NCBI RefSeq assembly: GCF_000485595.1
Contig: NW_014577081.1
Span: 865,674 to 898,388 of the forward strand
Length of the DNA stretch: 32,715 nt
Origin: Priapulus caudatus
Taxonomy: Eukaryota
Direction of reading: 5' to 3'
Shown here piece after piece: positions 5,762 to 29,240 of this stretch (position 1 is its first letter; the number at the start of each line of letters is the position of its first letter). Both the position numbers and the translations under genes were made by a program. Below the pieces are notes generated by a model. That model was not told the DNA's origin. It did no database searches and saw only the letters and a list, made by a program, of their open reading frames with translations.

Positions 5762-5820
5762 AGTTGCTTATGCACAATATTGTAGCATGATACAGATCAC
5801 AATTGCTACTAAAAACTCAC

Positions 5821-5927: not shown

Positions 5928-6144
5928 CTGCAATAATTATAATAATGATATCAATAATTAATGGTATAGGTATAAATTCCATGTTATACATTGATTTATA
6001 TATAACATTGTAAGGTCTGAGATGTTTCAGATATCCTTTGTAAATGGTTGAAAAAAATCTAGCATTAAAAATCAGGAACATAAACTAAACATGATTTTTC
6101 ACAATATTAATAGTACAAGATGTTAAAAGCATATAGTTGCTGAC

Positions 6145-6329: not shown

Positions 6330-6540
6330 CTGAAGTGATAGTGAACCATTATATATGTGTGAAGTTGAAAGATGACGCATACTAAGAGGTGATCGATCGA
6401 TCACATAACGACTAAACCCCAAAATTAAAGACCATTCACATTGGACGGAAACCTGATGTCTATGTTTATTACAGTGATTCTCGTTTGAACATGAACTCTG
6501 TGACTATAGAACAGTAAAATGGCTTGAATAGCTCACTCAC

Positions 6541-6651
6541 ACGATAGATGGCATCTTTGAGTGAACCTCCTTTGCTGCACGTCTGCAGTACAACGCAGAG
6601 GTTCTGATCTGGTATGAAGTCAATGGAGAGCTCACTGAAGATGTACGGATG
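6541..6651 (-). CDS. Slob: Slob/PXK-like exon
   Basis: HPYIFSELSIDFIPDQNLCVVLQTCSKGGSLKDAIYR; ttttttccag acceptor, gtgagt donor. Confidence 0.9.
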
Positions 6652-7277
6652 CTGGAAAAAAAGTGAGTGCAACGAGCGTAGTGTAATGAGTGTTAACGAG
6701 TGAGTGTGAGAGAATTAACTTCTCATGGAAAGACCAATAATGTTACTGTTAATTATCAAGCTCTTGGCACTATCAACTCCCTCTGATATTGCATATGTAG
6801 CTCATAAGCGTAAACACTAGGTGTAGGTTACGTCTCTGCGTGAGCATTCCAATGTGTGAAAACCTTGCTAATTTTACAATAATCCTCGATTATACAGGTC
6901 ACAACCTGACAATGGTGACATAATACGAATGCATGAAAGATTATGAGCACCATAGGAAGAAACACTCCTATTATTAGCTCTCTATACTATTTATGATAAG
7001 CACTATATTACATCTACGCATATGAGTTAGTATTTGAGTATAGATACAAAAACTACATTACCTGCCGAAAAACATTTTTTACTACCATTTATTTTTGAGC
7101 AGATGTGTTAATGTGTTAATTTATGAGAAGACATAAGAATTCATAATCCACATAGTAAAACAGATAACATTACTGAAAACAGTGGGATACATGCAGCCGT
7201 GACCGCAATTCTGCTATTTTCAATGACAGCTTTACCAGGGCCTCTACATGTTACCCAATGGTAGTTTATCTTACTAC

Positions 7278-7429
7278 CTGTAAGAGCAGGAGCAACTCAT
7301 TCAGCGTCTTGCAAGTCATATCTGTGAAGGGAAGTGGGCAGCCGGCAGATCGCGGGAACATGCAGAGGAGAATATGCGACTTTGCTCCAACTTTGCGCAC
7401 GTGGAACCAGTGCTTCTGCGCCCGACTGC
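7278..7429 (-). CDS. Slob: Slob/PXK-like exon
   Basis: (G)SRAQKHWFHVRKVGAKSHILLCMFPRSAGCPLPFTDMTCKTLNELLLLLQ; ccttcag acceptor. Confidence 0.88.
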
Positions 7430-7833
7430 CTGAAGGACAGAAACGCGGACTTGCATCACAGTAAGCGTTCACCGTGTACAGGAAAGAATGCAAGTTAATA
7501 TGACAGCAGTCTAGCAAATCCATAGGTGAGAGAAAGCCAGGTGATGAACAACCATTACTTACACTATGCTACAATGTTGATTATAATTTCCAAACAACCT
7601 AGCTGGTGCTCACTGAAAATACGTGAACATAACAGGTAGCACTCAGTCAGCATTGCAGGGAATTCAACCCATGTGTGTGTACATTATTTTGTTTTAGGCT
7701 TTACAAGGTCCCTAGAACTCACGTTCACTGTGGTGTATGGAAAATAGTCATTCTATTGTTGAATGGATACTTGGCAGAAGAACTGGACATGTGTTTACTA
7801 CTGAAGCAGTGCATTTAACATTATAGTCCATAC

Positions 7834-8277: not shown

Positions 8278-9537
8278 CGTATCCAAAACATCTAGAGCTG
8301 CATGAACTCCTCAACGCATGATTCGCCACACGAACAAAAACTCGCGACAGTCAAGAAATCAATGTGTTTTTTAACTTTTTATAACCGCGCTAACAATAAG
8401 TTTATATATCGCAGGGTTATTGTGGGAAGTTAGGGCACGACCAGTGACACATGACACGCACGTAATCCAAGCTGTTTTCTGAATTCGTCACGTAGAAAGT
8501 GGACTGTTTTTATTCAGGTAGATATTTAGAAGAAATGTATACTGTATATACTTGAAGATTCTAGGCACTTGCAACTTTGTGATGTGCCGGCAGCATTGAT
8601 AGATCTATGCATGGGGGTACCGTGGACTGGGGAAAAGAAAAACGAAAGTAAACCTTACCAGAAGCTCCCCGACATTCCTAGAGATTGAAACATTATTTGA
8701 CCAACTCTAATTAAGTTACATCAAGGAGGTTAATGAAGACACTATTGTCTTCATTAACTCCTTGTTACGCGTATGCTGGTTTTAAATTCCAATGGTTACC
8801 TTTATATACTATTTTGTTACTCACTGCTAGTAAAAAAGCTGGCCACCAAATTTTTGGCAGATCCACCAACTTTCTGAGTTGGTGGTCCTGCTGTCCACTA
8901 GATTTTCAGCCGAAATTCGAACCCTGCGGTGCGCGGGCTCGACAAACCCGCTTGCCCGATGGCCCGGGGCAACCAAAATTCGCCCCGGGGCAGCGTAGCT
9001 TGAAATTGCACTTCCCTGTTCGGGCAAGCAAGTTTTTTTATTGATGGCTAGACATAACGAGATTTGAATTAAAAAACAATGCAAATGAGACAATCAGTGC
9101 ATGCAGTCATACTTTGTACACAACATGCATACAGCAACATGTAAACCCGGCCTCTGTGATTTTGTCACCATTAGGAATAATTTGTGACCTCGTCGATTTT
9201 GCCGAAGCATAATCTTGACTTTTGTTTGGGAAACACCTTTACGATAATTAGACACACAATTTCTGGCTTCTGTGACATTATTAGAGTCAGATGCATCAAA
9301 ATTATGAAAATTTTAACAAAATCATGCTACGAAATTGCCTCCGTAAACAAAATTACGAGAGCTCTTTTTTTCCGACAAAATCAAAAAAGAGCTCTCGTAA
9401 TAAAAAAAGTATTTTTTAGGCTGTACCTAACGTAATCGTGAATCTGCACTTGTAGCACTAAAAGTGGATGACACGACGCTGTTACAAATGCTTGATAGGT
9501 GCACAACAACAGCTATTCTGTAGAAGCTGCAAGTTAC

Positions 9538-9637
9538 CTTGTACTGCTTCTTCCTGCTCCCTCCGCTCTCCCTCCATCCTCTCGGCTAGTGACATTTGCA
9601 TCTCTCAGAACCGTGTAGTCATAGCGACGATAGCTGC
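9538..9637 (-). CDS. Probable N-terminal Slob exon
   Basis: xSYRRYDYTVLRDANVTSREDGGRAEGAGRSSTR; strong tattttag acceptor and gtaact donor, open frame. Confidence 0.6.
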
Positions 9638-9802
9638 CTAAAATACAAGATTGGGAAACAAGCCATGCAGGCAAATATAATTGTAAACAGATCAATCTGT
9701 TATTACATCACTTCAAGTATTAATGGTGAAATCAGTACCACACCACCTACAGGTGTGACTTGCACATCTGTGATGCTGAGAGGGTCAAAGGTAACTGCTT
9801 AC

Positions 9803-9987
9803 ATGCATCTCCACATCAGCCAGGCAAAGATAGGCCAATGTAAGCAGTGAGAGCAAGACCAGTAGGACGATCCCCTGCAAGACACATTATGTCTGTAGTC
9901 AGTGACAGTGCAAATTAAGGCGGGCAATTGATGAGCTACATTTGGTATTGTGATGATTTCACCTGGCAACGCGACTGGTAGCGCCAT
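9803..9987 (-). CDS. Possible first coding exon of Slob-like gene
   Basis: ORF MALPVALPGE...FAWLMWRC ends at a strong GTAAGC donor; the true start could instead be the internal Met of MWRC. Confidence 0.4.
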
Positions 9988-10486
9988 GGATTGTTTATGA
10001 GGAACTCTTTTATGGACTCTTGATATTTAGCAAAAAAAACAACAACGAAGTTCCGGTATTTGGCCATTTTTGCAGCTGCTTCATTTCCCCACCCACTCAG
10101 CGTCTAGTTTTGAAAAATTAGGGCTTCTATTTTTGAAACTTTTTGTCCATTTTTCATAAAAAATATTGATTATTTGGGTTTCAAACCAAAATTCCTAATT
10201 TTTTCAAACCAATTTTTTTTCAAATTACGTGTTCAAAGTTACCCCAGTTGACGGTACCGTAAAATACTTATGTTGTAACAAAACCGGGCAATACTAAAAG
10301 CCTCGGATACTAGTACTATACTTAGTAGGTATTTGTGGAATTTGTGCTAGTATTATATTACTGTTTGCAGAGGAGCTGCGCACGTCTGCACTATAATGCC
10401 AATCAATTCTAAAATGAAAATGATACACCGGCACGTGTCACGTGCACACTCAACCACACTCTCCGTGACACTGGCACTATGGTCAT

Positions 10487-10670
10487 AGGGTCTATGTCCC
10501 CGCGGTACTGCCGGAACGTACCCTGGTAACTATTTGATTATGGTTAGGGTTAGGGTTAGGGAGTAGGCGTAGCAACTCTCTAGACTCGTTAGTGGAGTAG
10601 GCAAGTACGGTCCGGCAATATTAGATAGCTACCAGGGTACGTTCCGCAATAGCCTGGGGACATAGACCCT
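10487..10670. mobile_element. MITE with ~45-bp TIRs and internal (TTAGGG)n
   Basis: AGGGTCTATGTCCC...GGAACGTACCCTGGTA paired with TACCAGGGTACGTTCC...GGGACATAGACCCT; copy at about 17213-17404. Confidence 0.7.
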
Positions 10671-10753
10671 CTCACGGCACTATGTACACAACATTAGTTC
10701 AAGAAAACGGTCTTGCTAGGGTTAGCAAGACCCGTATAGACAATCGGTCACAC

Positions 10754-11145
10754 CACAGGCACTTGAAAACGTCTCAATAAAATAAAAAAAAGTAAATAAA
10801 CACGAAATGTATTTACTACCAAAGTCGTACTCTAATTTCACCTATAATCACCTCTTTCACCTGTAAATGCCGGTCAAATGCTCATCTGCAACACACAAGT
10901 ACACCGCACGCCAGCTGCTGCACACTGACACATAACTATATATTTATGTGTCAGTGTGCAGCAGCTAGCGTGCGGCGGCCAGCATGTGACAGGTGTGTTG
11001 CAGATGAGCATTTGGACGGCATTTACAGGAAATTGTCGGCCAATAATAGTGAAAAGAGAGTAGAGAAACATTAAGGCTTTGCGTAGTAAATAGATTTCGT
11101 ATTTATTTACCATTATATTTTATTGAAACGCTCCAAGTGCCTGTG
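10754..11145. mobile_element. MITE with long TIRs and central hairpin
   Basis: CACAGGCACTTG...CAAGTGCCTGTG ends; long imperfect arms; central palindrome gctgctgcacactgacacataa...ttatgtgtcagtgtgcagcagc; same family as the 11207-13347 outer layer. Confidence 0.75.
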
Positions 11146-11206
11146 CCTCGCACAGCCTGGTCGGGCTACACAACACGGCCATAAGTACATTAGTAGGGCC
11201 TAAGAC

Positions 11207-13347
11207 CACAGACACTTTGCAACGTCTCAATGAAAAAAAAAGGTAAATAAAAATGTTATTTACTACTAGTCTTAATTGTTTCTCTACTCTATTTCGCCTA
11301 GGTATTATTGCGCATAATTACCCGTAAATGCCGCGTCAAATGCCTCACTGCAACACACAAGCTACACCGCAGGCACCGCCCTTGCGCACAAGCTCTCTAT
11401 TCATGTTGTTTGTGCACAGGCGGGCGTGCGGCGTACTTGTGCAGATGGAGTCGTTGTCGTATCAGGTACTACAGATATGTACCCGAGGTAGCTCTAGTAC
11501 TATAGCCGCTTACATTAACTGCCGCTGGCTATAGAACGACCCATGGGGCATGCGATGGACCAACTTATCCCCGGATATATCCGGCTATTGAAACGTCTGT
11601 GGTAGGCAATTAATGCCTCTTATCCGAAGTGAATATGTCTTAAGTTATAGCCGCTACTAAAATTAAACCTCTAACTATCGTTGCAATGCGTATACTTGCG
11701 GTATTTCTGTGAACAACATTCGATTTGCGAACTTCAAACGGCCATTTCTGGCGGCGCTGCAGCAGCGCCAGTCAGCGGGAACTATGTATTTCCGCATGTG
11801 GAGGCGGTGGGCGGGTTGGGTGGGTTGTGGACAACAACATTGTTGTTGTCAGTAACAAATTAAGCGATCAAAAGAGATTGTAATATTAGTTTTGTCATGA
11901 AAGATGAACAAATTACTATTATTAATGTAATGAAGATAATAGTGTCATAAAAGGGAAAGTGGATTAAGAGAGAAGTCATTAGGAACAGTGGAAAACTACC
12001 GGCTAGCCTAAGGAATAGAATGTCCGGCAGGTCTTAGAAAACAATCGATCTTAGGGACGATTAGGATTAGTCGTGCTAAGATGGTCAGCCACGTAGAACG
12101 GTCACTCTGACCGTTCTAAAACATTCCATTAAAGCGCTCTGAAAACTCGCCGTCCAGGGACGTGGCGAAGGCCAATGCTGACGTCAGATAGCGGGCTAAT
12201 GTTCCCAAAAAAGAGAATAAATACCGTCGTACTGGACTCTAGAAGACAGTTCGCTGAACGCAGCGTCTTCGTAAGTATTAATAGGTCTATCGTATGAGTG
12301 CTCATCGTATCTGTGTCTCTCTCTCTTTAAACTATTTTGAGTCATTGTATTTTGTTTATTTACGGTGCTACCCTCTGTTTTGTCATATACATCCACTCTG
12401 TTGGTTGTTCTGTGAGAAAACACGTTAGTACAAACATACTCTGTACGTGAGAGAGACGGAGCACTATAGCTAAGGATACGTAGACCATTGATACATTTAT
12501 AACTAACCATCTGTAGACACGCAGGCAAGGCGTGCACTGTATTGCGTTTATCTAACACGACGAAACCCCTTGTATGTTGTTGTACTTAAATGGTGATAAG
12601 TATTAAATAGATATATATATATATGTTGTACGTACACATCTGGTTTTGTCTATCATTATATGCTAACCTCAGGTAATTACCCGCCCACAAGCAGGACCTG
12701 TGGTTTTAGAACATCGCATGGTATATACACTATACGTCACGAGCTACGATCACACACACACACCCACACACACACCTGAGCGTACACGTATACACGAGGC
12801 GAGAAACAAATCACTACATTAATTTGTTACTTGACAACAACAATGTTTTTGTCCACAACCAACACAACCCGCCCACCCCTCCACATGCGGAAATACATAG
12901 CTCCCGCTAACTGGCCGGAGTAAGTTGGTCCCGAGCATTCGTAATGGTTGATGCTATAGCCCAGCGGCAGTTAATGTAAGCGGCTATAGTACTAGAGCTA
13001 TATACCCGAGGTAGTTTTAGGTTGTTTAGCTATTATGTTTATATTTTATACGAGGTATGTTTGGGTTAGGGTTATAGGTTAGGGTTAGGGTTAGGGTACA
13101 CTTCTGTAGTACAAGTCTGGTACACTTTGTGTATACATATATGTACCTCGGGTACATATCTGTAGTACGGTACCTGATACGACAACGACTCCTTCAGCTG
13201 TACTTGTGTGTTGCAGATGAGCATTTGACCGGCATTTATGGGTAATTATCGGCAATAATAAGCGAAATAGAGTAGAGAAACATTAAGACTTTGGTAGTAA
13301 ATACATTTCGTGTTTATTTACCTTTTTTTACGTTCCAAGTGCCTGTG
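11207..13347. mobile_element. Nest of concentric MITE-like elements
   Basis: Four inverted-repeat pairs nested inside each other (11207/13347, 11447/13192, 11489/13000, 11768/12914) surrounding the solo LTR. Confidence 0.75.
11926..12818. mobile_element. Solo LTR (Ty3/Gypsy-like), 893 bp
   Basis: TG...CA ends with imperfect inverted termini TGTAATGA/TCACTACA; 4-bp TTAA target-site duplication (11922-11925, 12819-12822); absent from the duplicate copy, which has a single TTAA at about 18481. Confidence 0.8.
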
Positions 13348-15173
13348 CCTGTGGCTGTGCCTAAGAGTAAGACAGGTAACTTTGCGAAGATATAACTGAT
13401 AGTAAGTGATAAGCCATACCCGCCGAAACATACTCTACCGATTAAAATAATTCCACTATGCACGCTACTGTTTGCCATATTCACTCACCAACGCTTCCAT
13501 TGCATGCTAAAAGTTTCTCATAAACAAATTAACGCTGGTTTTTGTATTTTACTTTCTAAATAGTTCACATACTAAACACGCCGCTGGTTACGAAGTTCGA
13601 CCACAGCACCCCCTGGCCGCCGACGACGATAGCAGCGCCGTTAGCGCCGTTAGCGCTACAAATATACAAATTGTATAGATCTATAGAGACACAATCTATA
13701 TTATTTCTATCGCTACAAATAGTAATGTTTTGATCATATATATATATATCAAGAGCGTATTAAGAAAGTCTTCTTATATATTATATAGATATATAGATAT
13801 ATATAATATATATATATATTAGGCAGGGCGTAGCCAGTATGTAGCCACTGTAGGCCCGGGCCTACACTTTTTTTGGCCAAGTTATCTTTTTTTTTAAACA
13901 CCCATAATTCAAATCCATAAGCTTGCTGGACGAGTTTAAGAGTCTAGGCAGGAAAAACTATTGAATGAACGTAGCAAGAATATGGCTAAATTAGGTGACC
14001 ATTCTTCTGTCATCTAGGCTGTCATTTCTATCGCGTGCCGTTTCATTCAACACTCTACCGCCGAAAAAGACTAGGATCCGATCTTGTCAGTTTTTAACAT
14101 TTTAACTCGTTCGTACACTATTTTAACTCCGGTGCGTTTTTGGGTTTAAAAGTGATATTGAATTAGGTGTCTAAAGTTAGCAAGAGGTCAGGGAACCAGA
14201 ATGAACACTCGGGAAGGGCCGTTTCCGGCCATCTGGGGGGTTTGTAAAACCAAAAATACAAACCCAACTGTACGCGGGCTATAGTTACTAGAGCAAGATA
14301 CAAGCTACATAAATTTGTTATCAGAATTGCAAACATTGACATCTAAACTTATTATTTATAATGTTACTAATTTAAGAATAGTAATCTTAATATTGATATT
14401 ATTGTGTTGATAATAATTGCCAACAGAAAAATTGTTCAAATCAGACATTCTGCTTTATTTAAATAAATGCATGCTGACTGCTACAATGAGATGTGTACAC
14501 TTCCTCGCACCTGCGATTATTGCTGCCACCACATCAATGGTTATCAAAGTTAAATTAACCGTATTCACCGGCGTAACCTACCCGTCATGGAATCATGCAG
14601 CAAACGGATTCATCCAACAACACCCCGCAAAACCCACAATTCATGTCCTAAAGCGACAAGATATTGTAATAAATATGATCAACGTGCAGTTGTCTAGTGG
14701 CGCATATTTAAATGAGGTACTCATCATTGATTTTGTATTGCATGAATAGATCATTACCTAAATGAACAAGGACGGTCTAATGACGTACGTGTCAATAAAC
14801 GCACTGAAGCCATAGGCGGCGCTAGTTGCTGGCAGGTGGCGCATCAGGTAAGCCAATCCTTGACACCAAATAATTAAGGTCAGATCTAGTGTGAGATATT
14901 TAACTGGGGAAAATTGTACTAACATTTTTACTTCTATGTCTTTTTGGTGTTTTTATACCAGTTTTTGTACTGTTAAGATTGGCCACTTTGGATACCTCCC
15001 TCATCTGCATCAAGTGACTGCCCCGTCCATCTCCCGGCCTCCCCTTCCTCCACATGACGGCCTGTTCCCCCCCCCCGCATGATCGCAGCGGCACCCCCTT
15101 ACGGACTCTCTCTTCCTTCCTCTATATGTGAGAACCCATCTGTTTATTACAGTTGCATCATCGGAACAGTGAA

Positions 15174-15331
15174 TCACAATTCGTCAGGCACATGACGGGA
15201 GAATTGGCGTCTTCTCTCCTCTACCTCCACCTCTACGTCTACAGCAGTGCGGGACGGCGGCCGCCGCTCCTTCTCCATCACTCTCTGTAAGATCTTGTGA
15301 AGCACCGTTATCTGTCTTCCTTCCTGTGTCA
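15174..15331 (-). CDS. PHB-depolymerase-like last exon with C-terminal extension ending PDEL
   Basis: (M)TQEGRQITVLHKILQRVMEKERRPPSRTAVDVEVEVEERRRQFSRHVPDEL*; gttgcag acceptor; AATAAA on - strand at 15143-15148. Confidence 0.82.
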
Positions 15332-15584
15332 CTGCAACGTGTACGAGGGACGCGCCGTCAGACATGAAGGGCACGCCAGGTAAATGCGCCGTTGGCATCG
15401 TTACAACCTGACACGCTGCTCCAGCTAGTGGTTAGAGGGGGTCGGTTTGTTATTATTCGTCATTTTTCACTCATTATTATTGGGTTAGCAATGTCGATTT
15501 TTTATATTAGTATTTATAACTTAATAACATTAAATTAGTGAAATTATAGGCAAATTAATAATAATAGCTTTTATGATCACATAC

Positions 15585-15739
15585 TGTACGCCAAGCCGGT
15601 GTATCCCCACCAATCCCAGCAGCCTGTCGGGTTAAATTTATCTATCGGTAGAGCCTGGGGATACAGGATGATGATGTTATTCAACTCTCCGACTTCGTTG
15701 TAACCGGCGTTGTTGTTGAAGTCGTCGCCAACCAGGTCT
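15585..15739 (-). CDS. PHB-depolymerase-like penultimate exon
   Basis: DLVGDDFNNNAGYNEVGELNNIIILYPQALPIDKFNPTGCWDWWGYTGLAY; diagnostic IILYPQ and NPxGCWDWWGY motifs. Confidence 0.93.
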
Positions 15740-15852
15740 CTGGTAATGTCGCGCAGCAGGAGAAGAAACGAAACCATGAATATCTGCTGCGCTCGGTTCA
15801 GTTTTAATACAGCGCTCATTTGTAATGGTTGCCTCCCCAGGCTCCTCTCGTA

Positions 15853-17696
15853 AGTCATACTTTGTACACAACATGCATACAGCAACATGTAAACCCGGCC
15901 TCCGTGATTTTGTCACCATTAGGAATAATTTGTGACCTCGTCGATTTCGCCAAAGCATAATCTTGACTTTTGTTTGGGAAACACCTTTACGATAATTAGA
16001 CACAATTTCTGGCTTCTGTGACATTATTAGAGTCAGTGCATCAAAATTATGAAAATTTTAACAAAATCATGCTATGAAATAGTAGCTCTGGCCAAGCTTA
16101 AAATAGCTCCCGTAAACAAAATTACGAGAGCTCTTTTTTTCCTACAAAATCAAAAAAGAGCTCTCGTAATAAAAAAAGTATTTTTTAGGCTGTACCTAAC
16201 GTAATGTGAATCCGCACTGTAGGCACTAAAGTCGGATGACACGACGCTGTCACAAATGCTTGATATGTGCACAACAACAGCTATTCTGTAGAAGCTGCAA
16301 GTTACCTTGTACTGCTTCTTCCTGCTCCCTCCGCTCTCCCTCCATCCTCTCGGCTAGTGACATGTCATCTCTCAGAACCGTGTAGTCATAGCGACGATAG
16401 TGCCTAAAACACAAGATGGAGAACAAGCCATGCAGGCAAATATAATTGTAAACAGATCAATCTCTTATTACATCAACTTCAAGTATTATGGTGAAATCAG
16501 TACCACACCACCTACAGGTGTGACTTTGCAACATCTGTGATGCTGAGAGGTCAAAGGTAACTGCTTACATGCATCTCCACATCAGCCAGGCAAAGATAGC
16601 CAATGTAAGCAGTGAGAGCAAGACCAGTAGGACGATCGCCTGCAAGACACATTACGTCTGTAGTCAGTAACAGTGCAAATTAAGGCGGGCATTGATGAGC
16701 TACATTTGGTATTGTGATGATTTCACCTGGCAACGCGACTGGTAGCGCATGGATGTGTTTATGAGGAACTCTATTATGGACTCTTGATATTTAGCAAAAA
16801 AACAACAACAACAAAGTTCCGGTATTTGGCCATTTTAGATCGTCTGCAGCTGCTTTATTAGTTTGGAAAAATTAGGGCTTATATTTTGAAACTTTTTGTC
16901 CATTTTCATAAAAATATTGATTATTTTGGTTCAACCTAATTTTTTCAAATTACGTGTTCAAAGTTACCCCAGTTGACGGTACCGTAAAATACTTATGTTG
17001 TAACAAAACCGGGCAATACTAAAAGCCTCGGATACTAGTACTATAGTATACTTAGTAGGTATTTGTGGAATTTGTGGTAGTATTAAATTAGTGTTTGCAG
17101 AGGAGCTGCACGTGCACTATAATGCAATCAATTCTAAAATGAGAAGGATACACCGGCACGTGTCACGTGCACACCCAACCACACTCTCCGTGACGCTGGC
17201 ACTATGGCTCATAGGGTCTATGTCCCCCCGGGTACTGCCGGAACGTACCCTGGTAACTATTTGATATGGTTAGGGTTAGGGTTAGGGTTAGGGAGTAGGC
17301 GTAGGTGACTCTCTAGACTCGTTAGTGGAGTAGGCAAGGTACGGTCCGGCATATTAGATAGTACCAGGGTACGTTCCGGCAATAGCCTGGGGGACATAGA
17401 CCCTCTCAGCGGCACTATGTACACAACATTAGTTCCAAGAAACGGTCTTGCTAGGGTTAGAAGACCGTATAGACAATCGGTCACACCACAGGCACTTGAA
17501 ACGTCTCAATAAAATAAAAAAAAGGTAAATAAACACGAAATGTATTTACTACCAAAGTCGTACTCTATTTCACCTATAATCACCTCTTTCACCTGTAAAT
17601 GCCGGTCAAATGCTCATCTGCAACACACAAGTACACCGCACGCCAGCTGCTGCACACTGACACATAACTATATATTTATGTGTCAGTGTGCAGCAG
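15853..17696 (+). repeat. Direct duplicate of 9105-10974 (includes frameshifted copies of Slob 5' exons)
   Basis: Colinear match from agtcatactttgtacacaac to gtgtgcagcag with many 1-bp indels; ends at N gap 17697-17706. Confidence 0.92.
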
Positions 17697-17706
17697 NNNN
17701 NNNNNN

Positions 17707-19434
17707 GAAGATAGAGGGTTGAACGATTAGAAGTAAAGCTTGGGACAAAAACAGCCGTTAGGAATTTGTCTATGAGAAACTTTGCAGCAGAGGGAAGCTG
17801 TGTGTGGAGGTGAATATGGCAAACAGTAGCGTGCATAGTGGAATTATTTAATCGGTAGAGGATGTTCGGCGGTATGTGCTTATCACTTACTATTATCAGT
17901 TATATCTTCGCAAAGTTACCTGTCTTACTCTTAGGCACAGCCACAGGCACAGGCACTTGGAACGTCTTTATAAAAAAAGGTAAATAAACACGAAAGTATT
18001 TACTACCGAAGTCTGTAATGTTTCTCTACTCTATTTTCGCTTATTATTGCCGATAATTACCCGTAAATGCCGGTCAAATGCTCATTTCTGCAACACACAA
18101 GTACAGCTGAAGGAGTCGTTGTCGTATCAGGTACCGTACTACAGATATGTACCCGAGGTACATATATATGTATACACAAAGTGTACAGACTTGTACTACA
18201 GAAGTGTACCCTAACCCTAACCCTAACCCTATAACCCTAACCCTAAACATACCTCGTATAAAAATATAAACATAATACTAAACAACCTAAAACTACCTCG
18301 GGTATATAGCTCTAGTACTATAGCCGCTTACATTAACTGGCGCTGGCTATGCATCAAGCCATTACGAATGCTCGGACCAACTTACTCCGCCAGTTAGCGG
18401 GAGCTATGTATTCCGCATGTGGAGGGTGGGCGGGTTGTGTTTGGTTGTGGGACAAAAACAGTTGTGTGTCAGTAACAACATTAATAATAGTAATTTGTTC
18501 ATCTTTCATGACAAAAATAATATTACAATCTCTTTTTGATCGCTTAATTTGTTACTTGACAACAACAATCGTGTTGTCCACACCACCCCAACCCGCCACC
18601 CCTCCACATGCGGAAATACATAGTTCCCGCTGACTGCGGCCTGCTGCAGCGGCCGCCAGAAATGGCCGTTTGAAGTTCGCAAATCGAATGTTTGTTCACA
18701 AGAAATACCGCAAGTAACCATTGCAACGATAGTTAGAGGTTTAATTTTAGTAGCGGCTTATAACTTAAGACATATTCACTTCGGATAAGAGGCATTAATT
18801 GCCTACACAGACGTTTCATAGCCGGATATAATCGGGGATAAGTTGGTCCATCGCATGCCCACATGGGTCGTTCTATAGCCAGCGGCAGTTAATGTAAGCG
18901 GGCTATAGTACTAGAGCTACCTCGGGTACATATCTGTAGTACCTGATACGACAACGACTCCATCTGCACAAGTACGCCGCACGCCGCGCCTGTGCACAAA
19001 CAACATGAATAAGAGAGCTTGTGCACAGGGCGGCGTGCGGTGTACTTGTGTGTTGCAGATGAGCATTTGACGCGCATTACGGGTAATTATCGCAATAATA
19101 GCCTAGGCGAAATAGATGTAGAGAAACATTAAGACTAGTAGTAAATACATTTTATTTACCTTTTTTTTTCATTGAGACGTTGCAAGTGTCTGTGGTCTTA
19201 GGCCTACTAATGTACTATGGCCGTGTTGTTAGCCGACCGGAGGCTGTGCGAGCGCCACAGCACTTGGAGCGTTTCAATAAAATATAATGGTAAATAAATA
19301 CGAATCTATTTACTACCAAAGCCTTAATGTTTCTCTACTCTCTTTCACCTATTATTGCCGACAATTTCCTGTAAATGCCGTCCAATGCTCATCTGCAACA
19401 CACTGTCACATGCTGGCCGCCGCAACGCGTAGCT
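17707..19434 (-). repeat. Inverted duplicate of ~10971-13580 lacking the solo LTR
   Basis: Reverse-complement matches throughout (e.g. 17825-17890 vs 13402-13470; 19385-19432 vs 10973-11020). Confidence 0.9.
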
Positions 19435-20316
19435 TTGCTTGTTAATGTGTGTACGTGCAGGGTGAGCTTGTGCTAGCATGCCATAACCTGCAGTGTTGGC
19501 CCTTCAATTCAATCGGCTGACAGTACAGAATGCCATAGAAAGTATACGATTTAAGGAGCATAAACCTTCTTCAAGCAAATTTAGCTTTTGAAATTTGACT
19601 GTGACATTGTAGCCTCATACATCCAAGCATGTATAGATTCTACTAGCAAACCCAGCAGTCAAATTCTTTCTAACACAGTAACAGTTAACAAATCCATGTT
19701 TAAATCCCTCCTCTTGAGGGTCAAAAGGTTATCAGACACTTACTCTTCGCACATCAGCGGAAAGCACATTTCATGGTCCTTTCAATAAAGCCATAAAAAT
19801 GCTAGGTCACTGCTGAAACAAAAAAGTTTTCCAATCGCTCCGTCACACCATGTCTTCAGAAAATGTCTAAAATCTGCCCTGTGCCCCATTGACCTTTGAC
19901 CTGTGACCTCCAATTTCGGCACAGTGATGGCTTTTCCTACCATGATGCTATACACCGACTACCACTAGGGTCAAGAGGTGTAAAAGAAGGGGGAACATTC
20001 CCTCCTTAACTTAAGGTATAGGGAGGAAATGCAGAATTGCGGCACAAATCTAAACGGCTTTGACCTTTGACCCCAAGCTTCGACATCCCAACTCGTTTTG
20101 ACGATCCCCCCCAACGTCCCGAATATCGTGACCGTACGTCGAGCGGTTAAGATTTGTGCCCAACTGTTGACGCACGGACGGACGGACGGACGGACGGACG
20201 GCCGGACGCACGCACGGACGGACGGACGATCGTGCGATTCTACAAGCTGCATCTGACTTCGTCAGATGAGCTAAAAACAGTGACGTCATTACTAGTTGTG
20301 TTCGATAATGACGTAC

Positions 20317-20422
20317 CTGATTGATCACGGCAGGCGCTCGGTACGTAGCCAGCACCGAATCCGCTCATAGATATCGCAACGTTGGAATCGTCAAAGTATT
20401 CTCTCTGGTCGAACTCTATGAA
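20317..20422 (-). CDS. PHB-depolymerase-like exon 8
   Basis: FIEFDQREYFDDSNVAISMSGFGAGYVPSACRDQS; FDQ..Y and YVPxxC motifs. Confidence 0.88.
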
Positions 20423-20714
20423 CTGTAACAGCACATCCCCCCACAGGCAAACACATGACGTCATCAGCTATGCAACTGTAGAGTTCTATTGCTCTCTAAG
20501 ATTTGTAGAACATATTCAATAGCATTCCTATTACAAAGGTTCTTATATAATTATTATATTATCATAATTATGTATATATCTTCTTATATATATATATATG
20601 TATATATACTTGCGTTACCGTCTTTGCTACTGACCATAGATTTTGCCGTAAAACAGAATTTATAACGTGTATTGTTTACGCGTTCACTGGGTAACAGTCT
20701 GAGCAATGACATAC

Positions 20715-20747
20715 CTCTCCCTTTAATTCCACGTCACTAGACGGTTT
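20715..20747 (-). CDS. PHB-depolymerase-like exon 7 (33 nt)
   Basis: KPSSDVELKGE; tttttccccgcag acceptor, gtatgt donor; phase 0/0. Confidence 0.75.
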
Positions 20748-21097
20748 CTGCGGGGAAAAATCAATCGAAACAATTCTCATATTGAGCGGCAGTTATCGAT
20801 TACACACGTGGATTTTCATTTAGCTCAATTAATGGCGTGCGATGTGACGTCATGCTATCATTTAGTATCAAACACGATATACTACTGTAAATAAATTTTA
20901 GGGGTCATGTCCACGAATGATAGAGAATTTTTGTGACGCGAAAAAGCAAATTTTCATCTATCTGTCATTCGTGAAAATATGGGTCCTTTATTTATGATGA
21001 AGCAACAAACAGGATCACGGCTAGAGAGAGGAGCTGGGAAGGAACTCTCCCCGCGCGGATGTCGCAACCGTAACTGGGTTTGTATCGACGGCCGCAC

Positions 21098-21208
21098 CTC
21101 TAAGTGTCCGTAGATGTGGCTGAGAAGAGCGTAGGCGGTGTTGTAGCCACAGTTGTTGAGCAAAGGACGCCGGCTCTCCCTGCACTCACAGCCGTGACTC
21201 TCTGTGGG
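21098..21208 (-). CDS. PHB-depolymerase-like exon 6
   Basis: PTESHGCECRESRRPLLNNCGYNTAYALLSHIYGHLE; fits the PT...C...P...NCxY...L..IYG.L pattern. Confidence 0.9.
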
Positions 21209-21381: not shown

Positions 21382-21473
21382 AATTCCGTGGCCTGCTGCT
21401 ATCTCGTACTCTGCCTTCACGTTCTCGGCTGGTAGAAAAAATTCGTAGAATTCCTGCGTTTTTTTCACCACTT
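21382..21473 (-). CDS. PHB-depolymerase-like exon 5 (catalytic His)
   Basis: (E)VVKKTQEFYEFFLPAENVKAEYEIAAGHGI; cttgcag acceptor, gtaaga donor. Confidence 0.88.
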
Positions 21474-21700: not shown

Positions 21701-21823
21701 CTGGGTTAACTCGCTCATCGTGTTTTCCAGCCAGCAGGAAAACCTTAGCCTTTTCCAGGTGTTCAGGGTTATCAATGTGTTCCATGTCACCGAGGGCAAA
21801 GGTCATGTCAACAAGCTGCATGG
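21701..21823 (-). CDS. PHB-depolymerase-like exon 4 (catalytic Asp)
   Basis: (A)MQLVDMTFALGDMEHIDNPEHLEKAKVFLLAGKHDERVNP; contains the IDxxxxL and GxxDxxV motifs. Confidence 0.88.
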
Positions 21824-23338
21824 CTGCAAGTGTCACATTAATTACCACTAAATACACAATAACTAAAATAATCTACAGTACGAATTAATTAACTAACATA
21901 AACCATTTAAAAAAATACACAAATTCAATTATTTACTATATTGTATGAAACTCGACAAAACCGTGAATGTCAACACACACACCCACACACCCGCCACACC
22001 GGCCACACACACCACACCACACACACACATGCCATTTGTATTGTGATAAAGATTACCGAAAAGGGTGTCGCACATGCAGATCATAAAAATCAAGAAAACA
22101 ATAAAGCAGAAAACCAATCTTGGTGTTAGAGGGCTGATACCAAAATAATTTTGGTCGGGATTTATTATTGTTAATGGTCCCAAGGTCATCAATAATTATG
22201 CGTGTATTACATATCATCATTTGCAATGGAATAATTACATTATTAAATAATGCTATTACTAACAGTCTCCCACTTTTTGCGTGAATATAAGCTCGTGTTC
22301 ACAGCTTAATCCTGAAATAAGTGTCTAATGTGAGATGATATTCCTAAGCCTTTCATAAACAGATATTCTCTTGAATGAATTTCTGCAATTAGAATTATTT
22401 AATATACAGAAAAAAAACGTGTTAAAAAAGAAACGGTACCTAATTTTATAAGACATCCGCATTATTCTTAAAAACGGTTGTGCTGATCATTATATAATGC
22501 TCTCAATGCAACTTGAATGAAATGCAGTGGCAAAAAAAGAAAGTCAATCAGGGAAAGCGTCAAATTGTTGACGCACAGTATCACAAACAATTAAACGGCT
22601 TCTGCACTTCCAAACGACACACAATCGCCACACCACGCCACACACGCACACACACCACACATGAGCACGACACAACAGACACACACACACGCACATCAAC
22701 CACACCCACACCACACACACACACACGACACACCAGCACTCAGCACAGTCTACACACTTACATACAAATATGGGAAATATCCGTGGGACATGGTCCCCCT
22801 GTCACACCTGGTTATGCGCCCTGGCGGACCACGCACCAAGCACAGTTGCCTACTACCCGCGCACGCTGGCAACATTCCGAATGACCGAACGCATGTAGCC
22901 AGCACGCACCTGCACGCACGCTAACGCACATACAAACTCCAACACCCGCCGCGTGCGCAAAATGCGTTTAAGAAGCATAGGGGACGCGGCGAATATTACG
23001 CAAATCTATAAATCAGATTATTGGCAGCTGATTTATTAGTGACGTAATGCAAGAAAGATGTTTGCTTGCTTGATAAGAATAGTTAGCAGTTGGGCTACGT
23101 GGGCGAGGCGGGATGGCGGATGGAGCTAGGTACCATGAGTTTCATAAGGTGGTCAACGGAAATGAACAGGTGCCGTAATGCTATGATGAGCGATGCTGAA
23201 TTTTATAGTGCATACGAACTGACTCATAAGAAAATTTGGGGGCGAGTAGAAAAATCACGTAGCTGACTCGGTGAATATAGGAGGCCTTATATATAGTTGA
23301 GAAAATCGCGTACAGCCATTTAAGGGAGAAAGTTATTC

Positions 23339-23580
23339 AGAGAGAGAGGAGAGAGACGAAGAGAGAGAAAGAGAGAGAGAGAGGAGATCAGACGAGAGAG
23401 AGAGAGAGGAGGAGAAGAGAGAAGAGAGAGAGAGAAGAGAGGAGAGAGAGGGAAAGGGCAGAGATAGAGAGAACATAAGTAAGAAAACGATGTAGAAAGA
23501 GAAAGGCGAGGAGGGGAAGGAGAGCGAGAGAGACAGTATAATATATATTACTATAATAATATATATTATTATATATATAC

Positions 23581-23614
<34 letters not shown>

Positions 23615-23630
23615 GAGAGAGAGAGAGGAG
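23339..23630. repeat. Noisy (GA)n tract
   Basis: Seen directly; a (CT)n tract also occurs at 24535-24722. Confidence 0.85.
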
Positions 23631-24211
23631 GGGGTCGTCATGCGCGCCGTTCAGATTTCGTAAGACGTTGATCGCTCTAATTAATTATAAAATTAAATTG
23701 GTATCTGGTAAAGCAAATAAACGTTCTGGGTCTACGACGAACTTTGTTATACAGTAAGTAAGTTGATATGCAGTAATCTAAGAGGCTACCTGCCCTATTA
23801 ACCGATACGAATTATCGTGTAAAATCACGGGTCCACCGTGTGACCCAGCCAGCTGACCGTGACGCACAGGGACGGAGTGGTCACCAAACCCAACGATAAG
23901 ATCGCACGCGTTCACTTTCTCATGCACTCATCAACGTACACGTATAGCTGCTATCTCACCGCGCATAAGTTATCACGATATCCCAGCAGATGCTAGAGCT
24001 ATCGGGATGCAGCTAATGTAGCATAGAACAGAAATTCAAAGTCCACTGACGCGTCGTGTAACCAGGCGACACACGCGGCAGACGTACACTGGCTGGGTCA
24101 TATAGCGCTGTCACAAACCTATGTCCGTGCGTGTGACACACTGTCAAACTGTAGTGAGACGAGAGCACCCTATACATTATACATATACATATACATTATT
24201 ACATATACAAC

Positions 24212-24305
24212 ATGCGCGCGGCGACGTGTACAGTCATTCTTGCTGTCACCATCATCTGCTGTGTAATTACTACTGCACGCGGACAACACCAGGCAGCGCC
24301 ACTGA
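24212..24305 (+). CDS. PHB-depolymerase-like exon 1 (signal peptide), lying in an inverted assembly block
   Basis: caacATG start; MRAATCTVILAVTIICCVITTARGQHQAAPL, then A|GTAAGT. Hydrophobic signal peptide. Phase 1 joins exon 2 as ...AAPL-N-GYGAVDVSVSG. A noisy + strand copy of exon 2 follows at about 24815-24930. Confidence 0.75.
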
Positions 24306-24570
24306 GTAAGTGTCATAATTGTTATATTTGATTAATAAATAGCTCATAATATACATATACGTATATATGTGTGTATGTGTGCGCGCGTGTGTGCGTGCGT
24401 GCGCGCGCGTGTGTAGGTATATAGATAAATGACAGTTACAGTGAATCTGGCAGAAACTGACGAGTCAACGACGACGATTGTTATGATGGCGATTAATGTT
24501 GATCGATAATAATCAAGTAGGCGCGATATTAATACTCTCTCTCTCTCTCTCTCTTCTCTCCTCTCTTCGC

Positions 24571-24601
<31 letters not shown>

Positions 24602-25876
24602 TCTCTCATTCTCATCATCCTCTCCTCTCTCGTCTCTCTCTTCTTCTCGCTCTCTATACTGTCCTCTCTCTCATCTCACGTCACTCTCTCCGTCTTTCTC
24701 TCTCGCGCGCTCATCTCTTCTCTTAACCCTCCGTCGTCGTCGATCGTGCGTGCGTAGCGTGAGTGCGGCGTGCGTGCGTGCGTGCGTGCGTGCGTGGTTG
24801 CGTGCTGTCGGTAGATGCGTACGAGCGATAGATCAGTGTCATGTCCGGCACTCGCGCCGGCGCACTAGGCGCACGCAAGATGCTCTCTCATCACTCAGCT
24901 CGTTCCCCACCCCAGGACAGCCTTGTCATCGCCGCAGGTCACACACCCCGTACGAATTCACTCAATCCAGATCAGAGATCAAGATACATAATGATAATCG
25001 CCTGATACGATACTAACTGACTATACCCGCCACGCCTCACGAAACTTCGATCGCATGCCGCTGCCGCTGCTGTCCAATGCTAATCCGCGGCGTCGCTCCG
25101 CTTGCTACTACAGCTGCGCAAACCAGAGGAATTACTCACACTTCTTTCGTTGCAATTTTCTGCCCATTTTCGACCCCTACCCATTAAATACACCTGGACA
25201 GAATGTAGTATAATATCATTCATATAATAGTAAGTATGTGTCTGCAGGAGCCTAAAACATTGATGAGTTAGCTTTTACTCTATAGTAGACTGCGCGCTAA
25301 TATTTGGCATGGTATAAATAATTTTGTATTGTGGACCAGCATGAGGAATTCCAGAGACAACGGTGAACCCTATCTCTATCGCTTTCATTCACCAGGTCCT
25401 ACTTCTGCGGCCGGCGGCAGCCTCGAGATCTCGCGCGATGCTTGGTGCAAACGGGCGAAATCGACGGTCACTATAGGAAGTTTACAACTCCGATCTTTGC
25501 CGAACATTCACGGTTTTGTCGAGTTTCATACAATATAGTAAATAATTGAATTTGTGTATTTTTTAAAATGGTTTATGTTAGTTAATTCGTACTGTAGATT
25601 ATTTTAGTTGTAGCGCATAGACTTTCGTAACCTAGTAGTAATTCTTCAGAGCCGGTTTTGTGCTTTANNNNNNNNNNTAAAGCACAAAACCGGCTCTGAA
25701 GAATTACTACTAGGTTACGAAAGTCTATGCGCTACAACTAAAATAATCTACAGTACGAATTAACTAACATAAACCATTTTAAAAAATACACAAATTCAAT
25801 TATTTACTATATTGTATGAAACTCGACAAAACCGTGAATGTTCGGCAAAGATCGGAGTGTAAACGTCCATAGTTAC

Positions 25877-25951
25877 CGTCGATTTTCGACGCGTTTGCCA
25901 CGCAAGCATCTCGCGAGATCTCGAGGCTGCCGCCGGCGCAGAAGTAGGGAC
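25877..25951 (-). CDS. PHB-depolymerase-like exon 3
   Basis: (G)PYFCAGGSLEISRDACVANASKID(A); tttcccag acceptor, gtaact donor; noisy inverted copy at about 25396-25466 (+). Confidence 0.85.
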
Positions 25952-26361
25952 CTGGGAAATGAAGCGCGATAGATTAGGGTTTCACTCGTTGTCTCTGGAA
26001 TTCTCTCCAATTGCTGGGTCACAATACAAAATTATATACCATGCAAATATACGCGCAGTCTACTATAGAGTAAGCTAACTCACAATGTAGCTCCGCGACA
26101 CATACTTACTATGTAATAATGTGATATGATATTATATCCACATTCATGTCACAGGTGTATTAAGTGGTATGTGCGAAAATGGCAAAAATGCGAACCGATA
26201 AAATGTGATAATTCTCTGTTTGGCGCAGCTGTTATACAACGAGCACCGCGCATACATTACAGCACGGCACGCATGCGACATTTCTACGTGCGTATACCAT
26301 AGTACTACACGATGATCATGTATATCTATCGTGCTATCTATATGAATCTACGTGTGTGTAC

Positions 26362-26478
26362 CTGCGGCGATGACAGCTGCTCCTGTGACGTAGCTAGAGT
26401 GTGAGATGAGCATCTGCTGCGCCATGTGACCGCCGGCGGCGATGCCGGACACGGACACATCTACGGCTCCGTAGCCAT
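26362..26478 (-). CDS. PHB-depolymerase-like exon 2 (lipase box, Ser->Ala)
   Basis: GYGAVDVSVSGIAAGGHMAQQMLISHSSYVTGAAVIAA(G); aligns by eye to the family motif VSVSGLSSGGxMA. Confidence 0.88.
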
Positions 26479-26487
26479 CTACCGACA

Positions 26488-26538
<51 letters not shown>

Positions 26539-26598
26539 CGACGACGACGACGGAGGGAGAGAGAGAGAGAGAGCGCGCGAGAGAGAAAGAGAGAGAGT

Positions 26599-26636
<38 letters not shown>

Positions 26637-26639: not shown

Positions 26640-27101
26640 AGTTGCTAGGAGGCCCCTGATTGGCCGCCTGCTACGAGGCCCCTGATTGGTCGGCTGCTAG
26701 GAGGGCCCTGATTGGTCGGCTGCTAGGAGGCTCCTGATTGGTCGGTAGCTACGAGGCTCCTGATTGGTTGGTAGCGAGGAGGCCCCTGATTGGTCGGCTG
26801 CTACGAGACTCCTGATTGGTCGGTTGCTAAGAGGCCCCTGATTGGTTGGTTGATAGGAGGCTCCTGATTGGCCGGCTGCTAGGCAGCCCCTGATTGGCCA
26901 GCTGCTACGAGGCCCCTGATTGGTCGGCTGCCTGGAGGCCCCTGATTAGCCGGCTGCTACGAGGCTCCTGGTTGGTCGGCTGCTAGGAGGCCCCTGATTG
27001 GTCGGCTGCTACAAGGCTCGTGATTGGTCGGCTGCTACGAGGCCCCTGATTGGTCGGTTGGTAGGAGGCCCCTGATTGGTCGGCTGCTAAGAGGCCCCTG
27101 A
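26640..27101 (+). repeat. 26-bp minisatellite, ~18 units
   Basis: Unit GGCCCCTGATTGGTCGGCTGCTACGA; period 26 (e.g. 26651 to 26677). Confidence 0.95.
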
Positions 27102-28291: not shown

Positions 28292-29240
28292 CTGCTGATT
28301 GCCCGGCTGTTACGAGGCTCCTGATTGGTCGGCTGCTACAGGCCCCTGATTGGTCGGTTGGTAGGAGGCCCCTGATTGGACGGTTGCTAGGAGGCCCTGA
28401 TTGGTCGGCTGCTGTCAGGGGCCTCTTAGCAGCCGACCAATCAGGGGCCTCCTACAACCGACCAATCAGGGGCCTCCGTAGCAGCCGACCAATCACGAGC
28501 CTTGTAGCAGCCGACCAATCAGGGGCTCCTAGCAGCCGACCAACCAGGAGCCTCGTAGCAGCCGGCTAATCAGGGGCCTCCAGCAGCCGCCAATCAGGGC
28601 CTCGTAGCAGCTGGCCATCAGGGGCTGCCTAGCAGCCGGCCAGTCAGGAGCCTCCTATCAACCAACCATCAGGGGCCTCTTAGCAACCGACCAATCAGGA
28701 GTCTCGTAGCAGCCGACCATCAGGGGCCTCCTCCGCTACCACATCAGGAGCCTCGTAGCTACCGACCAATCAGGAGCCTCCTAGCAGGCCGATCAATCAG
28801 GGCCCTCCTAGCAACCGACCAATCAGGGGCTTCATAGCAGCCGCCCTCAGGGCCCTCCTAGCAGCGACAAATCAGGGGCCTCGTCAACAACGGCCAATCA
28901 GCGGCCTTGTAGCAGCCAACCAATCAGTGGCCTGCTGCAACCGACCAATCAGAGGCCTCCTAGCAACTGGCTAATCAGGAGCCTCGTTGCAACCGACCAA
29001 TCAGGGGCCTCCTAGCAGCTAACCAAGCAGGGCCCTCCTAGCAACCAACCAATCAGGGGCTTCGTAGCAGCCGGCCAATCAAGCCTCCTAGCCAGCCGAC
29101 CAATCAGGGCCTCGTAAAACGGCCAATCAGCGGCCTCATAGCAGCCGACCAATCAGTGCCTGCTAGCAACCCCAATCAGGAACCTCATAGCAACCAACCA
29201 ATCAGGAGCCTCGTAGCAGCTGACTAATCAAGGGGCTTCT
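28290..29240. repeat. 26-bp minisatellite: ~5 forward units then ~32 inverted units
   Basis: Same unit; orientation flips at about 28413; 28414-28860 mirrors 26640-27101. Confidence 0.93.

What the first reader, a model, noticed from the sequence alone, without database searches (positions are those of the whole stretch)
26422..26457. Catalytic serine replaced by alanine: a natural pseudo-depolymerase
Seen: the lipase box reads VSG-I-A-A-GG-HMA (ATC GCC GCC GGC) where the family has VSG-L/I-S-S-GG-xMA. The noisy inverted copy near 24853-24872 (tccggcactcgcgccggcg) is compatible with GCC. Catalytic Asp (GKHDERV) and His (AGHG) remain and all recovered exons are open. Known: Ser->Ala at this site inactivates serine hydrolases while usually preserving substrate binding. 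Inference: a maintained, catalytically dead polyester or oligo-3-hydroxybutyrate binder, sensor or regulator of active paralogs.
Basis: partly seen in the sequence, partly recalled or inferred. Interest (0 to 1): 0.85.

Follow-up and report, generated by a model that had tools for sequence, protein, structure and literature searches.

The report
Serine-less PHB depolymerase in priapulid worm
A marine priapulid worm transcribes an unbroken gene for a bioplastic-digesting enzyme whose cutting serine is replaced by alanine, so the protein is likely a non-cutting binder, predicted to be held partly in the endoplasmic reticulum.

Summary
The Ser-to-Ala change is real. Codon GCC (26438-26440, minus strand) aligns with Ser39 of the fungal PHB depolymerase. 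No other letter is listed there in about 16-18 DNA reads from a separate sample and study, or in a 29x contig. The noisy inverted copy is an assembly fold-back and cannot tell GCC from TCC.

The gene has 11 exons and 368 codons. It matches the truncated Priapulus caudatus RefSeq model XP_014670990, which starts after the Ala. It is spliced and weakly expressed (about 2-4 RPKM in 2 of 3 raw RNA runs). New here: exon 9, missing from the window, reads HAC instead of the invariant oxyanion HGC; the protein ends in PDEL, and its two closest Ser-bearing relatives end in GDEL and DDEL; some transcripts skip the lipase-box exon.

Best reading (0.5): a maintained, catalytically dead, substrate-trapping protein of the ER or early secretory pathway. 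Early decay of a spare gene remains possible (0.22). No Ala-bearing ortholog was found, and dN/dS could not be computed. Ser-to-Ala copies also occur independently in Owenia and in one unnamed lineage. Verdict: new variant of a known kind, interest 0.55.

The parts
24212..24305 (+). Exon 1: start codon and a hydrophobic, signal-peptide-like N-terminus (judged by eye). It lies on + only because the assembly inverted this block.
   Evidence: An X7 contig joins its 3' end to exon 3 (loose end at 25951).
26362..26478 (-). Exon 2 (117 nt, phase 1-1, can be skipped in frame): lipase box GIAAGG
   Evidence: X9 RNA depth about 2.4. Its 3' part is in RefSeq model P0169.
26438..26440 (-). Ala45 codon GCC at the nucleophile position (Ser39 of the fungal enzyme)
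   Evidence: no other letter in X8 or X1
26435..26437 (-). Ala46 at the oxyanion-amide position (Ser40 of the fungal enzyme); a tolerated variant, Ala in 42 of 268 homologs
25877..25951 (-). Exon 3 (GPYFC motif)
   Evidence: X7 spliced contig; P0169
21701..21823 (-). Exon 4, with catalytic-position Asp131 (21717-21719)
   Evidence: X6 and X7 contigs
21382..21473 (-). Exon 5, with catalytic-position His165 (21388-21390)
   Evidence: X6 contig
21098..21208 (-). Exon 6
   Evidence: X6 and X7 contigs
20715..20747 (-). Exon 7 (33 nt)
   Evidence: Joints 20422-20715 and 20747-21098 in X6 and X7
20317..20422 (-). Exon 8
   Evidence: X6 and X7 contigs
15740..20316 (-). Repeat-rich stretch where exon 9 (43 nt) should lie; it is absent from the window. 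In transcript contig X6 it encodes H-A-C in place of the oxyanion motif H-G-C.
   Evidence: tables 5, 5c, 8 (40 letters between, in both X6 and X7; letters shown for X6 only); (0 matches with up to 3 mismatches)
15585..15739 (-). Exon 10, with an intact GCWDWWGY substrate-binding motif
15174..15331 (-). Exon 11 coding part: acidic tail ending in PDEL-stop (PDEL 15177-15188)
   Evidence: Joint 15331-15585 in X6, X7 and 2 reads of X10
21861..25735 (.). Assembly insertion holding an inverted, noisy copy of the gene's 5' part (fold-back 24644-26635 around the N gap at 25668-25677)
   Evidence: Contig X1 and X8 reads join 25736 to about 21860 (table 7).

Best explanation
This is a spliced, open 368-codon Priapulus caudatus gene of the animal PHA-depolymerase family with alanine in place of the catalytic serine, and it likely encodes a maintained, catalytically dead protein predicted to bind (R)-3-hydroxybutyrate esters or a client protein in the ER or early secretory pathway without cutting them. 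SHOWN: the Ala codon, the exon chain, low expression, retained Asp, His, Cys and Trp motifs, the PDEL end, and a clade with two Ser-bearing xDEL proteins. INFERRED, step 1: no acyl-enzyme can form without the serine hydroxyl, and Gly-to-Ala next to the oxyanion Cys likely disturbs the oxyanion hole too. Step 2: the crevice still holds ligand, as the engineered fungal S39A protein does. Step 3: the signal peptide and PDEL give partial KDEL-receptor retrieval. Step 4: it therefore would buffer, hold or present an ester ligand or client, in the compartment where its ancestors hydrolysed it. The ligand itself is untested.
For: The codon is confirmed in independent DNA reads. The frame is open over all 11 exons, with spliced contigs in X6 and X7 and exon reads in X9 and X10. 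38 of 40 columns that are at least 95% conserved outside exon 9 are kept, and 4 of 5 inside it. Under a simple neutral model, the Ser codon changes before any stop, frameshift or splice lesion in only 1.2-1.6% of cases. 3 of the 4 exon variants seen are synonymous (p about 0.04, without transition bias). GC3 is 0.62 against intron GC 0.38. The model groups with P0134 and P0144 at 100/99 with the tails removed. All three end in xDEL, while only P0073 and its cluster-mate P0168 do so among the other fetched proteins. PDEL gave mixed ER-Golgi localisation of a reporter, and it ends the ER protein TNRC5 (PMC2140024 section 9). S39A is solved with a bound trimer, and W307 recognises the ester. A second PHAD of the species is listed.
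Against: No ortholog with GxAxG was found, and the nearest relatives (41% identical) keep Ser and HGC. S45A and G260A each need only one base change, so they could be recent. Expression is low (about 1-4 RPKM in X9 and X10; no depth in the exon bins of X11). The only X7 contig upstream of exon 3 skips exon 2, which deletes the nucleophile strand and helix. The X6 contig ends exactly at the start of exon 3, as expected if both forms exist. HAC rests on the letters of one contig, X6 (depth 12.5, labelled as a different organism). PDEL is a leaky signal, and TNRC5 stays in the ER without it. The variant count is tiny, and hid 314 rows. No protein-level evidence exists.
Confidence: 0.5

Rival explanations
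1. A spare gene in early decay: activity became dispensable beside a second PHAD, the serine was lost by drift, and truncating lesions have not yet arrived.
For: Low, patchy expression. In-frame skipping of the lipase-box exon. Single-base changes. No Ala-bearing ortholog. At 1% neutral divergence an intact frame still has probability 0.2-0.3.
Against: Ser loss before any lesion has probability 1.2-1.6%, and Ser plus Gly260 about 0.03-0.05% (toy model). 3 of 4 variants are synonymous, GC3 is high, and the tail motif is kept.
Confidence: 0.22
2. A maintained dead protein that leaves the ER and works with the active enzyme in the gut or phagolysosome, as a granule-binding helper or a regulator of the active paralog.
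For: Signal-like N-terminus; PDEL retains only partly. A second PHAD exists in the species. Dead twins sit beside Ser-bearing sisters in Owenia (P0281 and P0145, 73% identical) and in the P0088/P0086 lineage. Inactive GH28 proteins act in beetle pectin digestion (abstract of PMC6549527).
Against: The xDEL end is shared by the whole clade, including its Ser-bearing members. Expression is low for a bulk digestive helper (tissues unknown).
Confidence: 0.2
3. Still an enzyme, using a migrated nucleophile or water activated by the retained His-Asp pair.
For: Asp131, His165, Cys261 and the Trp motif are kept. Migrated catalytic residues are known in other pseudoenzyme families (passages of PMC10211241).
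Against: No new Ser or Cys appears at positions 43-47. The oxyanion motif is also changed, where Gly stands in 289 of 289 motif-bearing homologs. No structure of the full protein could be modelled.
Confidence: 0.06
4. The Ala codon is a sequencing or assembly error in a noisy region.
For: The surrounding block is misassembled and noisy.
Against: X8 raw reads (16-18 deep, another sample and study) and contig X1 show no other letter.
Confidence: 0.02

Closest known systems
Animal PHA depolymerases (dPHADscl, catalytic domain type 2; PMC13642032)
   Same: Same domain order, signal-like N-terminus, Asp, His and oxyanion Cys, GCWDWWGY motif; 36-41% identity to the best family members; a similar exon number (11 against 10 in O. 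algarvensis).
   Different: Ser is Ala and HGC is HAC; 34-residue acidic tail ending in PDEL. That study kept only sequences with a complete catalytic site. Its Table 2 does not list this gene or the Owenia Ala copy.
Penicillium funiculosum PHB depolymerase S39A mutant (PDB 2d81)
   Same: The same substitution at the same aligned position; the mutant is solved with a bound 3HB trimer.
   Different: It is engineered and keeps HGC. The worm protein is natural, has the extra Gly-to-Ala change and the xDEL tail, and its binding is untested.
P0134 and P0144 (unnamed Logan proteins, 359 aa)
   Same: Sister clade at 100/99, 41% identity, acidic tail ending in GDEL or DDEL.
   Different: They keep GISSG and HGC, so they are predicted to be active. 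Their organisms are unknown.
Inactive GH28 pectinases of beetles (PMC6549527, abstract only)
   Same: Dead members of a digestive hydrolase family that exist beside active ones.
   Different: Different fold; they are highly expressed and their role was shown by silencing, whereas here expression is low and the role untested.
Non-catalytic alpha/beta-hydrolase proteins such as neuroligins, the thyroglobulin ChEL domain and maspardin (recalled, no call)
   Same: The hydrolase fold is reused for binding after loss of the nucleophile.
   Different: Other subfamilies with known partners; only an analogy.

Membership tests
Extracellular PHA depolymerase, domain type 2 (animal PHAD) | Homology to P. 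funiculosum 2d80 with the lipase box before the oxyanion motif | tested here: met
   Exon 2 aligns to 2d80/2d81 (E 0.01-0.03). The sister P0134 matches 2d80 at E 3.6e-44 and Pfam Esterase_PHB. Motif order.
Extracellular PHA depolymerase, domain type 2 (animal PHAD) | Nucleophilic Ser in G-x-S-x-G | tested here: not met
   GCC = Ala, confirmed in reads
Extracellular PHA depolymerase, domain type 2 (animal PHAD) | Catalytic Asp and His | tested here: met
   Asp131 and His165
Extracellular PHA depolymerase, domain type 2 (animal PHAD) | Oxyanion motif H-G-C | tested here: not met
   H-A-C in contig X6; the Cys is kept. Gly in 142 of 142 and in 289 of 289 with the motif. Rests on one contig.
Extracellular PHA depolymerase, domain type 2 (animal PHAD) | Substrate-recognising Trp motif (CWDW) | tested here: met
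   GCWDWWGY is intact
Extracellular PHA depolymerase, domain type 2 (animal PHAD) | Secretion: signal peptide without retention signal | tested here: inconclusive
   Hydrophobic N-terminus judged by eye (no predictor run); C-terminal PDEL
Extracellular PHA depolymerase, domain type 2 (animal PHAD) | Hydrolyses PHB | not testable with these tools
   Needs an assay
Maintained pseudoenzyme | Lacks a catalytic residue but keeps an intact, expressed reading frame | tested here: met
Maintained pseudoenzyme | Purifying selection after loss of catalysis | tested here: inconclusive
   Indirect only; no ortholog found, so no dN/dS
Maintained pseudoenzyme | Protein made, with a non-catalytic function | not testable with these tools
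   No proteome or assay available
KDEL-receptor-retrieved ER protein | C-terminal KDEL-like motif that retrieves efficiently | tested here: inconclusive
   PDEL is outside the PROSITE pattern and gave mixed ER-Golgi localisation in PMC2140024; xDEL is in 3 of 3 clade members
Pseudogene | Truncating lesion or no transcription | tested here: not met
   The frame is open in the window exons and in contig X6; spliced transcripts exist

The most novel reading that the evidence does not exclude
The xDEL clade is an ER-resident branch of animal PHA depolymerases that acts not on food but on the cell's own short poly-3-hydroxybutyrate, conjugated to secretory or membrane proteins. The Ser-bearing members would be erasers, and this Ala protein would be the first known reader. 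Dead readers or helpers would have arisen repeatedly in animals (Priapulus, Owenia, the P0088 lineage).
Probability: 0.08. Interest if true: 0.88.

Novelty: new variant of a known kind. Interest (0 to 1): 0.55.

Why it matters
Animal PHA depolymerases were described only in 2026, and the survey kept only sequences with a complete catalytic site. Dead members were therefore invisible by design, and here the RefSeq model also starts just after the Ala and ends before the tail. A natural substrate-trap version and an xDEL-tailed subfamily suggest that the family does more than digest bacterial storage plastic. They give ready tools (the natural protein, its revertant, an active sister) to ask whether animals handle PHB or 3HB oligomers inside the secretory pathway. 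Pseudoenzymes of the alpha/beta-hydrolase fold are common, so the class itself is not surprising.

Tried and rejected
No whole genome was held, so paralogs could not be counted directly. The inverted copy was rejected as evidence (the first attempt used free end gaps and was uninformative). The exon-2 homolog search gave 0 hits among 78 candidates, which is weak evidence. The profile searches found no Ala-bearing ortholog; only the best 120 of 3019 and the best 150 of 4669 hits were seen. The scan for DNA of the P0088 lineage found nothing closer than 66%, so no dN/dS was computed. One search listed no indexed RNA holder on record; that is not used as evidence. Exon 9 was not found in the window. 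My first guess, a gutless oligochaete, was rejected once named Priapulus caudatus. No Rfam match in the window. Single exons gave no Pfam hit. Earlier-findings look-ups returned nothing. Literature searches with 0 hits: depolymerase + ER + polyhydroxybutyrate + KDEL, 'inactive depolymerase' + PHA granule + binding, Priapulus caudatus + depolymerase; the 15 of 211 papers listed named no PHB pseudoenzyme in title or abstract start. Clustering of the changes at the active site is not significant on its own (about 0.3 by my arithmetic, no call).

Full report
Setting. The window is animal DNA with microsatellites, N gaps and assembly duplications; no whole genome was held. A database protein, P0169, is identical to residues 50-250 of my gene model. 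Its record is XP_014670990.1, LOC106811783, Priapulus caudatus. That RefSeq model starts at Met50, five residues after the site in question, and runs into unrelated sequence after exon 8, so it shows neither the Ala nor the C-terminus.

The observation. The minus strand at 26362-26478 encodes VSVSGIAAGGHMA. It aligns with the fungal PHB depolymerase 2d80 (GLSSGG) and its S39A mutant 2d81 (GLASGG), which puts the first Ala (GCC, 26438-26440, residue 45) on the nucleophile. I laid four runs on 25700-26486. X8 is raw DNA of another sample and study; about 4 in 100 of it was read, giving mean depth 18.5 in the bin. It lists no other letter at the codon, and its only exon variants are 26447 (3 of 16 reads) and 26462 (4 of 12), both synonymous. 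Contig X1 (depth 28.9, possibly the window's source) agrees. RNA run X9 laid 12 reads, 11 of them at least 99% alike, with about two over the codon; that is too few for the tool to list a difference. It belongs to a fold-back (24644-26635, 81-83% identical) inside a block, 21861-25735, that X1 and X8 skip.

The gene. Spliced contigs from X6 (depth 12.5) and X7 (depth 4-5; both guessed to be RNA) and raw RNA reads define the exons. The model has 11 exons and 368 codons with no stop. Exon 1 lies on the plus strand in the inverted block. The exon 1-2 junction was not seen directly. It follows from phase and from my arithmetic: X9 depth stops after 23 bases of bin 26456-26482, that is at 26478. 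The exon 2-3 junction is in P0169. Exon 9 (43 nt) is not in the window. Both contigs hold 40 extra letters at that joint, and the X6 letters translate to a motif ending H-A-C where the family has H-G-C. The protein ends in an acidic tail and PDEL. Expression is about 2 RPKM in X9 and 1-4 in X10, with no depth in the exon bins of X11. The only X7 contig upstream of exon 3 joins exon 1 straight to exon 3, skipping the 39-codon lipase-box exon in frame. The X6 contig stops exactly at the start of exon 3 (74 letters left), as expected at a branch between two forms (inference). In X9, exon 2 is as deep as exon 3 (2.4 against 2.2), so inclusion also occurs.

How unusual. Of 311 fetched proteins, 268 cover the site: Ser 260, Ala 5, Gly 2, Gln 1 (cluster-mates are included, so the rows are not independent). 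In the MAFFT set of 142, 118 cover it: Ser 116, Ala 1, Gly 1. Of 80 metagenome loci, 75 cover it, all Ser. The Gly of HGC is invariant: 142 of 142, and 289 of 289 where the motif was found, with 22 proteins lacking a match. Ala46 is a common variant (42 of 268) and carries no weight. The model keeps 38 of 40 columns that are at least 95% conserved outside exon 9, differing at Ser45 and His55; its Ser-bearing relatives differ at 0-2.

Relatives. P0134 and P0144 (unnamed, 359 aa, 41% identical to the model) group with it at 100/99 in IQ-TREE on 33 selected rows without the tails, and at SH 99 in FastTree on 143 and 271 rows. They keep GISSG and HGC and end in GDEL and DDEL. Elsewhere only P0073 and its cluster-mate end in DEL. 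The tail is therefore older than the loss of Ser. No Ala-bearing ortholog appeared. Independent Ser-to-Ala copies exist. One is Owenia fusiformis CAH1780438.1 (GMAAGA), sister to the Ser-bearing P0145 at 73% identity. Another is the unnamed P0088 cluster, with GFASG in 4 of the 4 members that cover the site, of 5. Their terminal branches are longer than their sisters' (0.33 against 0.13; 0.17 against 0.07). These are database predictions that I did not check in reads.

Maintained or decaying. For maintenance: under a toy neutral model the Ser codon is hit before any stop, frameshift or splice lesion in 1.2-1.6% of cases; 3 of 4 exon variants are synonymous (the fourth is V353E in the tail; p about 0.04); GC3 is 0.62 against 0.38 in introns. 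Against: each change needs one base; at 1% neutral divergence an intact frame still has probability 0.2-0.3; expression is low; exon 2 is skipped in some transcripts; one search hid 314 variant rows; and there is no dN/dS. I put a maintained dead protein at about 0.7 and early decay at 0.22.

Mechanism. Established for the fungal enzyme: Ser39-Asp121-His155 form the triad, the amides of Ser40 and Cys250 form the oxyanion hole, Trp307 recognises the ester, and S39A was solved with a bound trimer (passages of two reviews, PMC5445757 and PMC9878459). Inferred: the worm protein cannot form the acyl-enzyme but keeps the crevice, so it would act as a substrate trap. PDEL gave mixed ER-Golgi localisation of a reporter and ends an ER protein that does not need it (PMC2140024, passages and section 9), so retention is predicted to be partial. 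I commit to a non-catalytic binder of 3HB esters or of a client in the ER or early secretory pathway (0.5), ahead of a secreted helper or regulator of the active enzyme (0.2). Medium-chain PHB has been reported from eukaryotic microsomes (passages of PMC3709699), which leaves the bolder 'reader' case open at low odds.

Prior art. From PMC13642032 I read the abstract, passages, sections 6 (part 1 of 2), 9, 10 and 12 (part 1 of 3), and part 1 plus searches of the supplementary spreadsheet. It reports 195 animal PHADs and kept only those with a complete catalytic site. Its Table 2 lists one P. caudatus protein (XP_014675511, 328 aa) and Owenia CAH1780439.1, but neither LOC106811783 nor CAH1780438. 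I could not see its supplementary texts, FASTA files or Table 7, which might mention incomplete-triad copies. Searches showed no report of a natural dead or ER-retained PHAD. PMC6549527 was seen as abstract only and PMC10211241 as passages. The neuroligin, ChEL and maspardin analogies are recalled.

Verdict. By sequence it belongs to the animal PHAD family, but it fails the two catalytic criteria, so it should not be filed as a depolymerase enzyme. It is a new variant of a known kind, interest 0.55.

Noticed in passing
window 802-970 (+): Last exon of an SLC41/MgtE-type cation transporter gene (Pfam MgtE, E 1e-12).
   Followed up: partly
window about 3600-7450 (-): Multi-exon gene with kinase-like segments (LHSGNV) and a C-terminal WH2 motif (Pfam WH2, E 1e-5). 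It resembles PXK/Slob pseudokinases (name recalled).
   Followed up: partly
window 9105-13545 and 15853-19434: Direct and inverted duplicates at 91-94% identity around the N gap at 17697. Parts are abundant transcribed repeats. Exon 9 of the gene was probably lost from the assembly here.
   Followed up: partly
window 16402-16568: A 165-base joint with CT..AC ends (a minus-strand intron) in X7 and X11 (36 reads) but not X10. It lies in duplicated sequence, so a separate spliced transcript is nested or mis-placed here.
   Followed up: no
window 26643-27101 and 28295-29236: Arrays of a 26-bp GC-rich minisatellite in opposite orientations.
   Followed up: no
P0015 cluster (JGI, unnamed): PHAD homologs with the catalytic His replaced by Tyr in 6 of 6 members, close to the Ser-to-Ala P0088 cluster and the intact P0086: two kinds of dead copy in one small clade.
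   Followed up: partly
P0074 (Capitella teleta), P0180, P0286, P0298: Further homologs with Gly or Gln at the nucleophile position. P0074 also lacks the Asp segment and looks decayed or mis-modelled.
   Followed up: no
P0073/P0168: An unrelated PHAD cluster ending in KDEL with an intact triad, which suggests a second, independent gain of ER retention.
   Followed up: no
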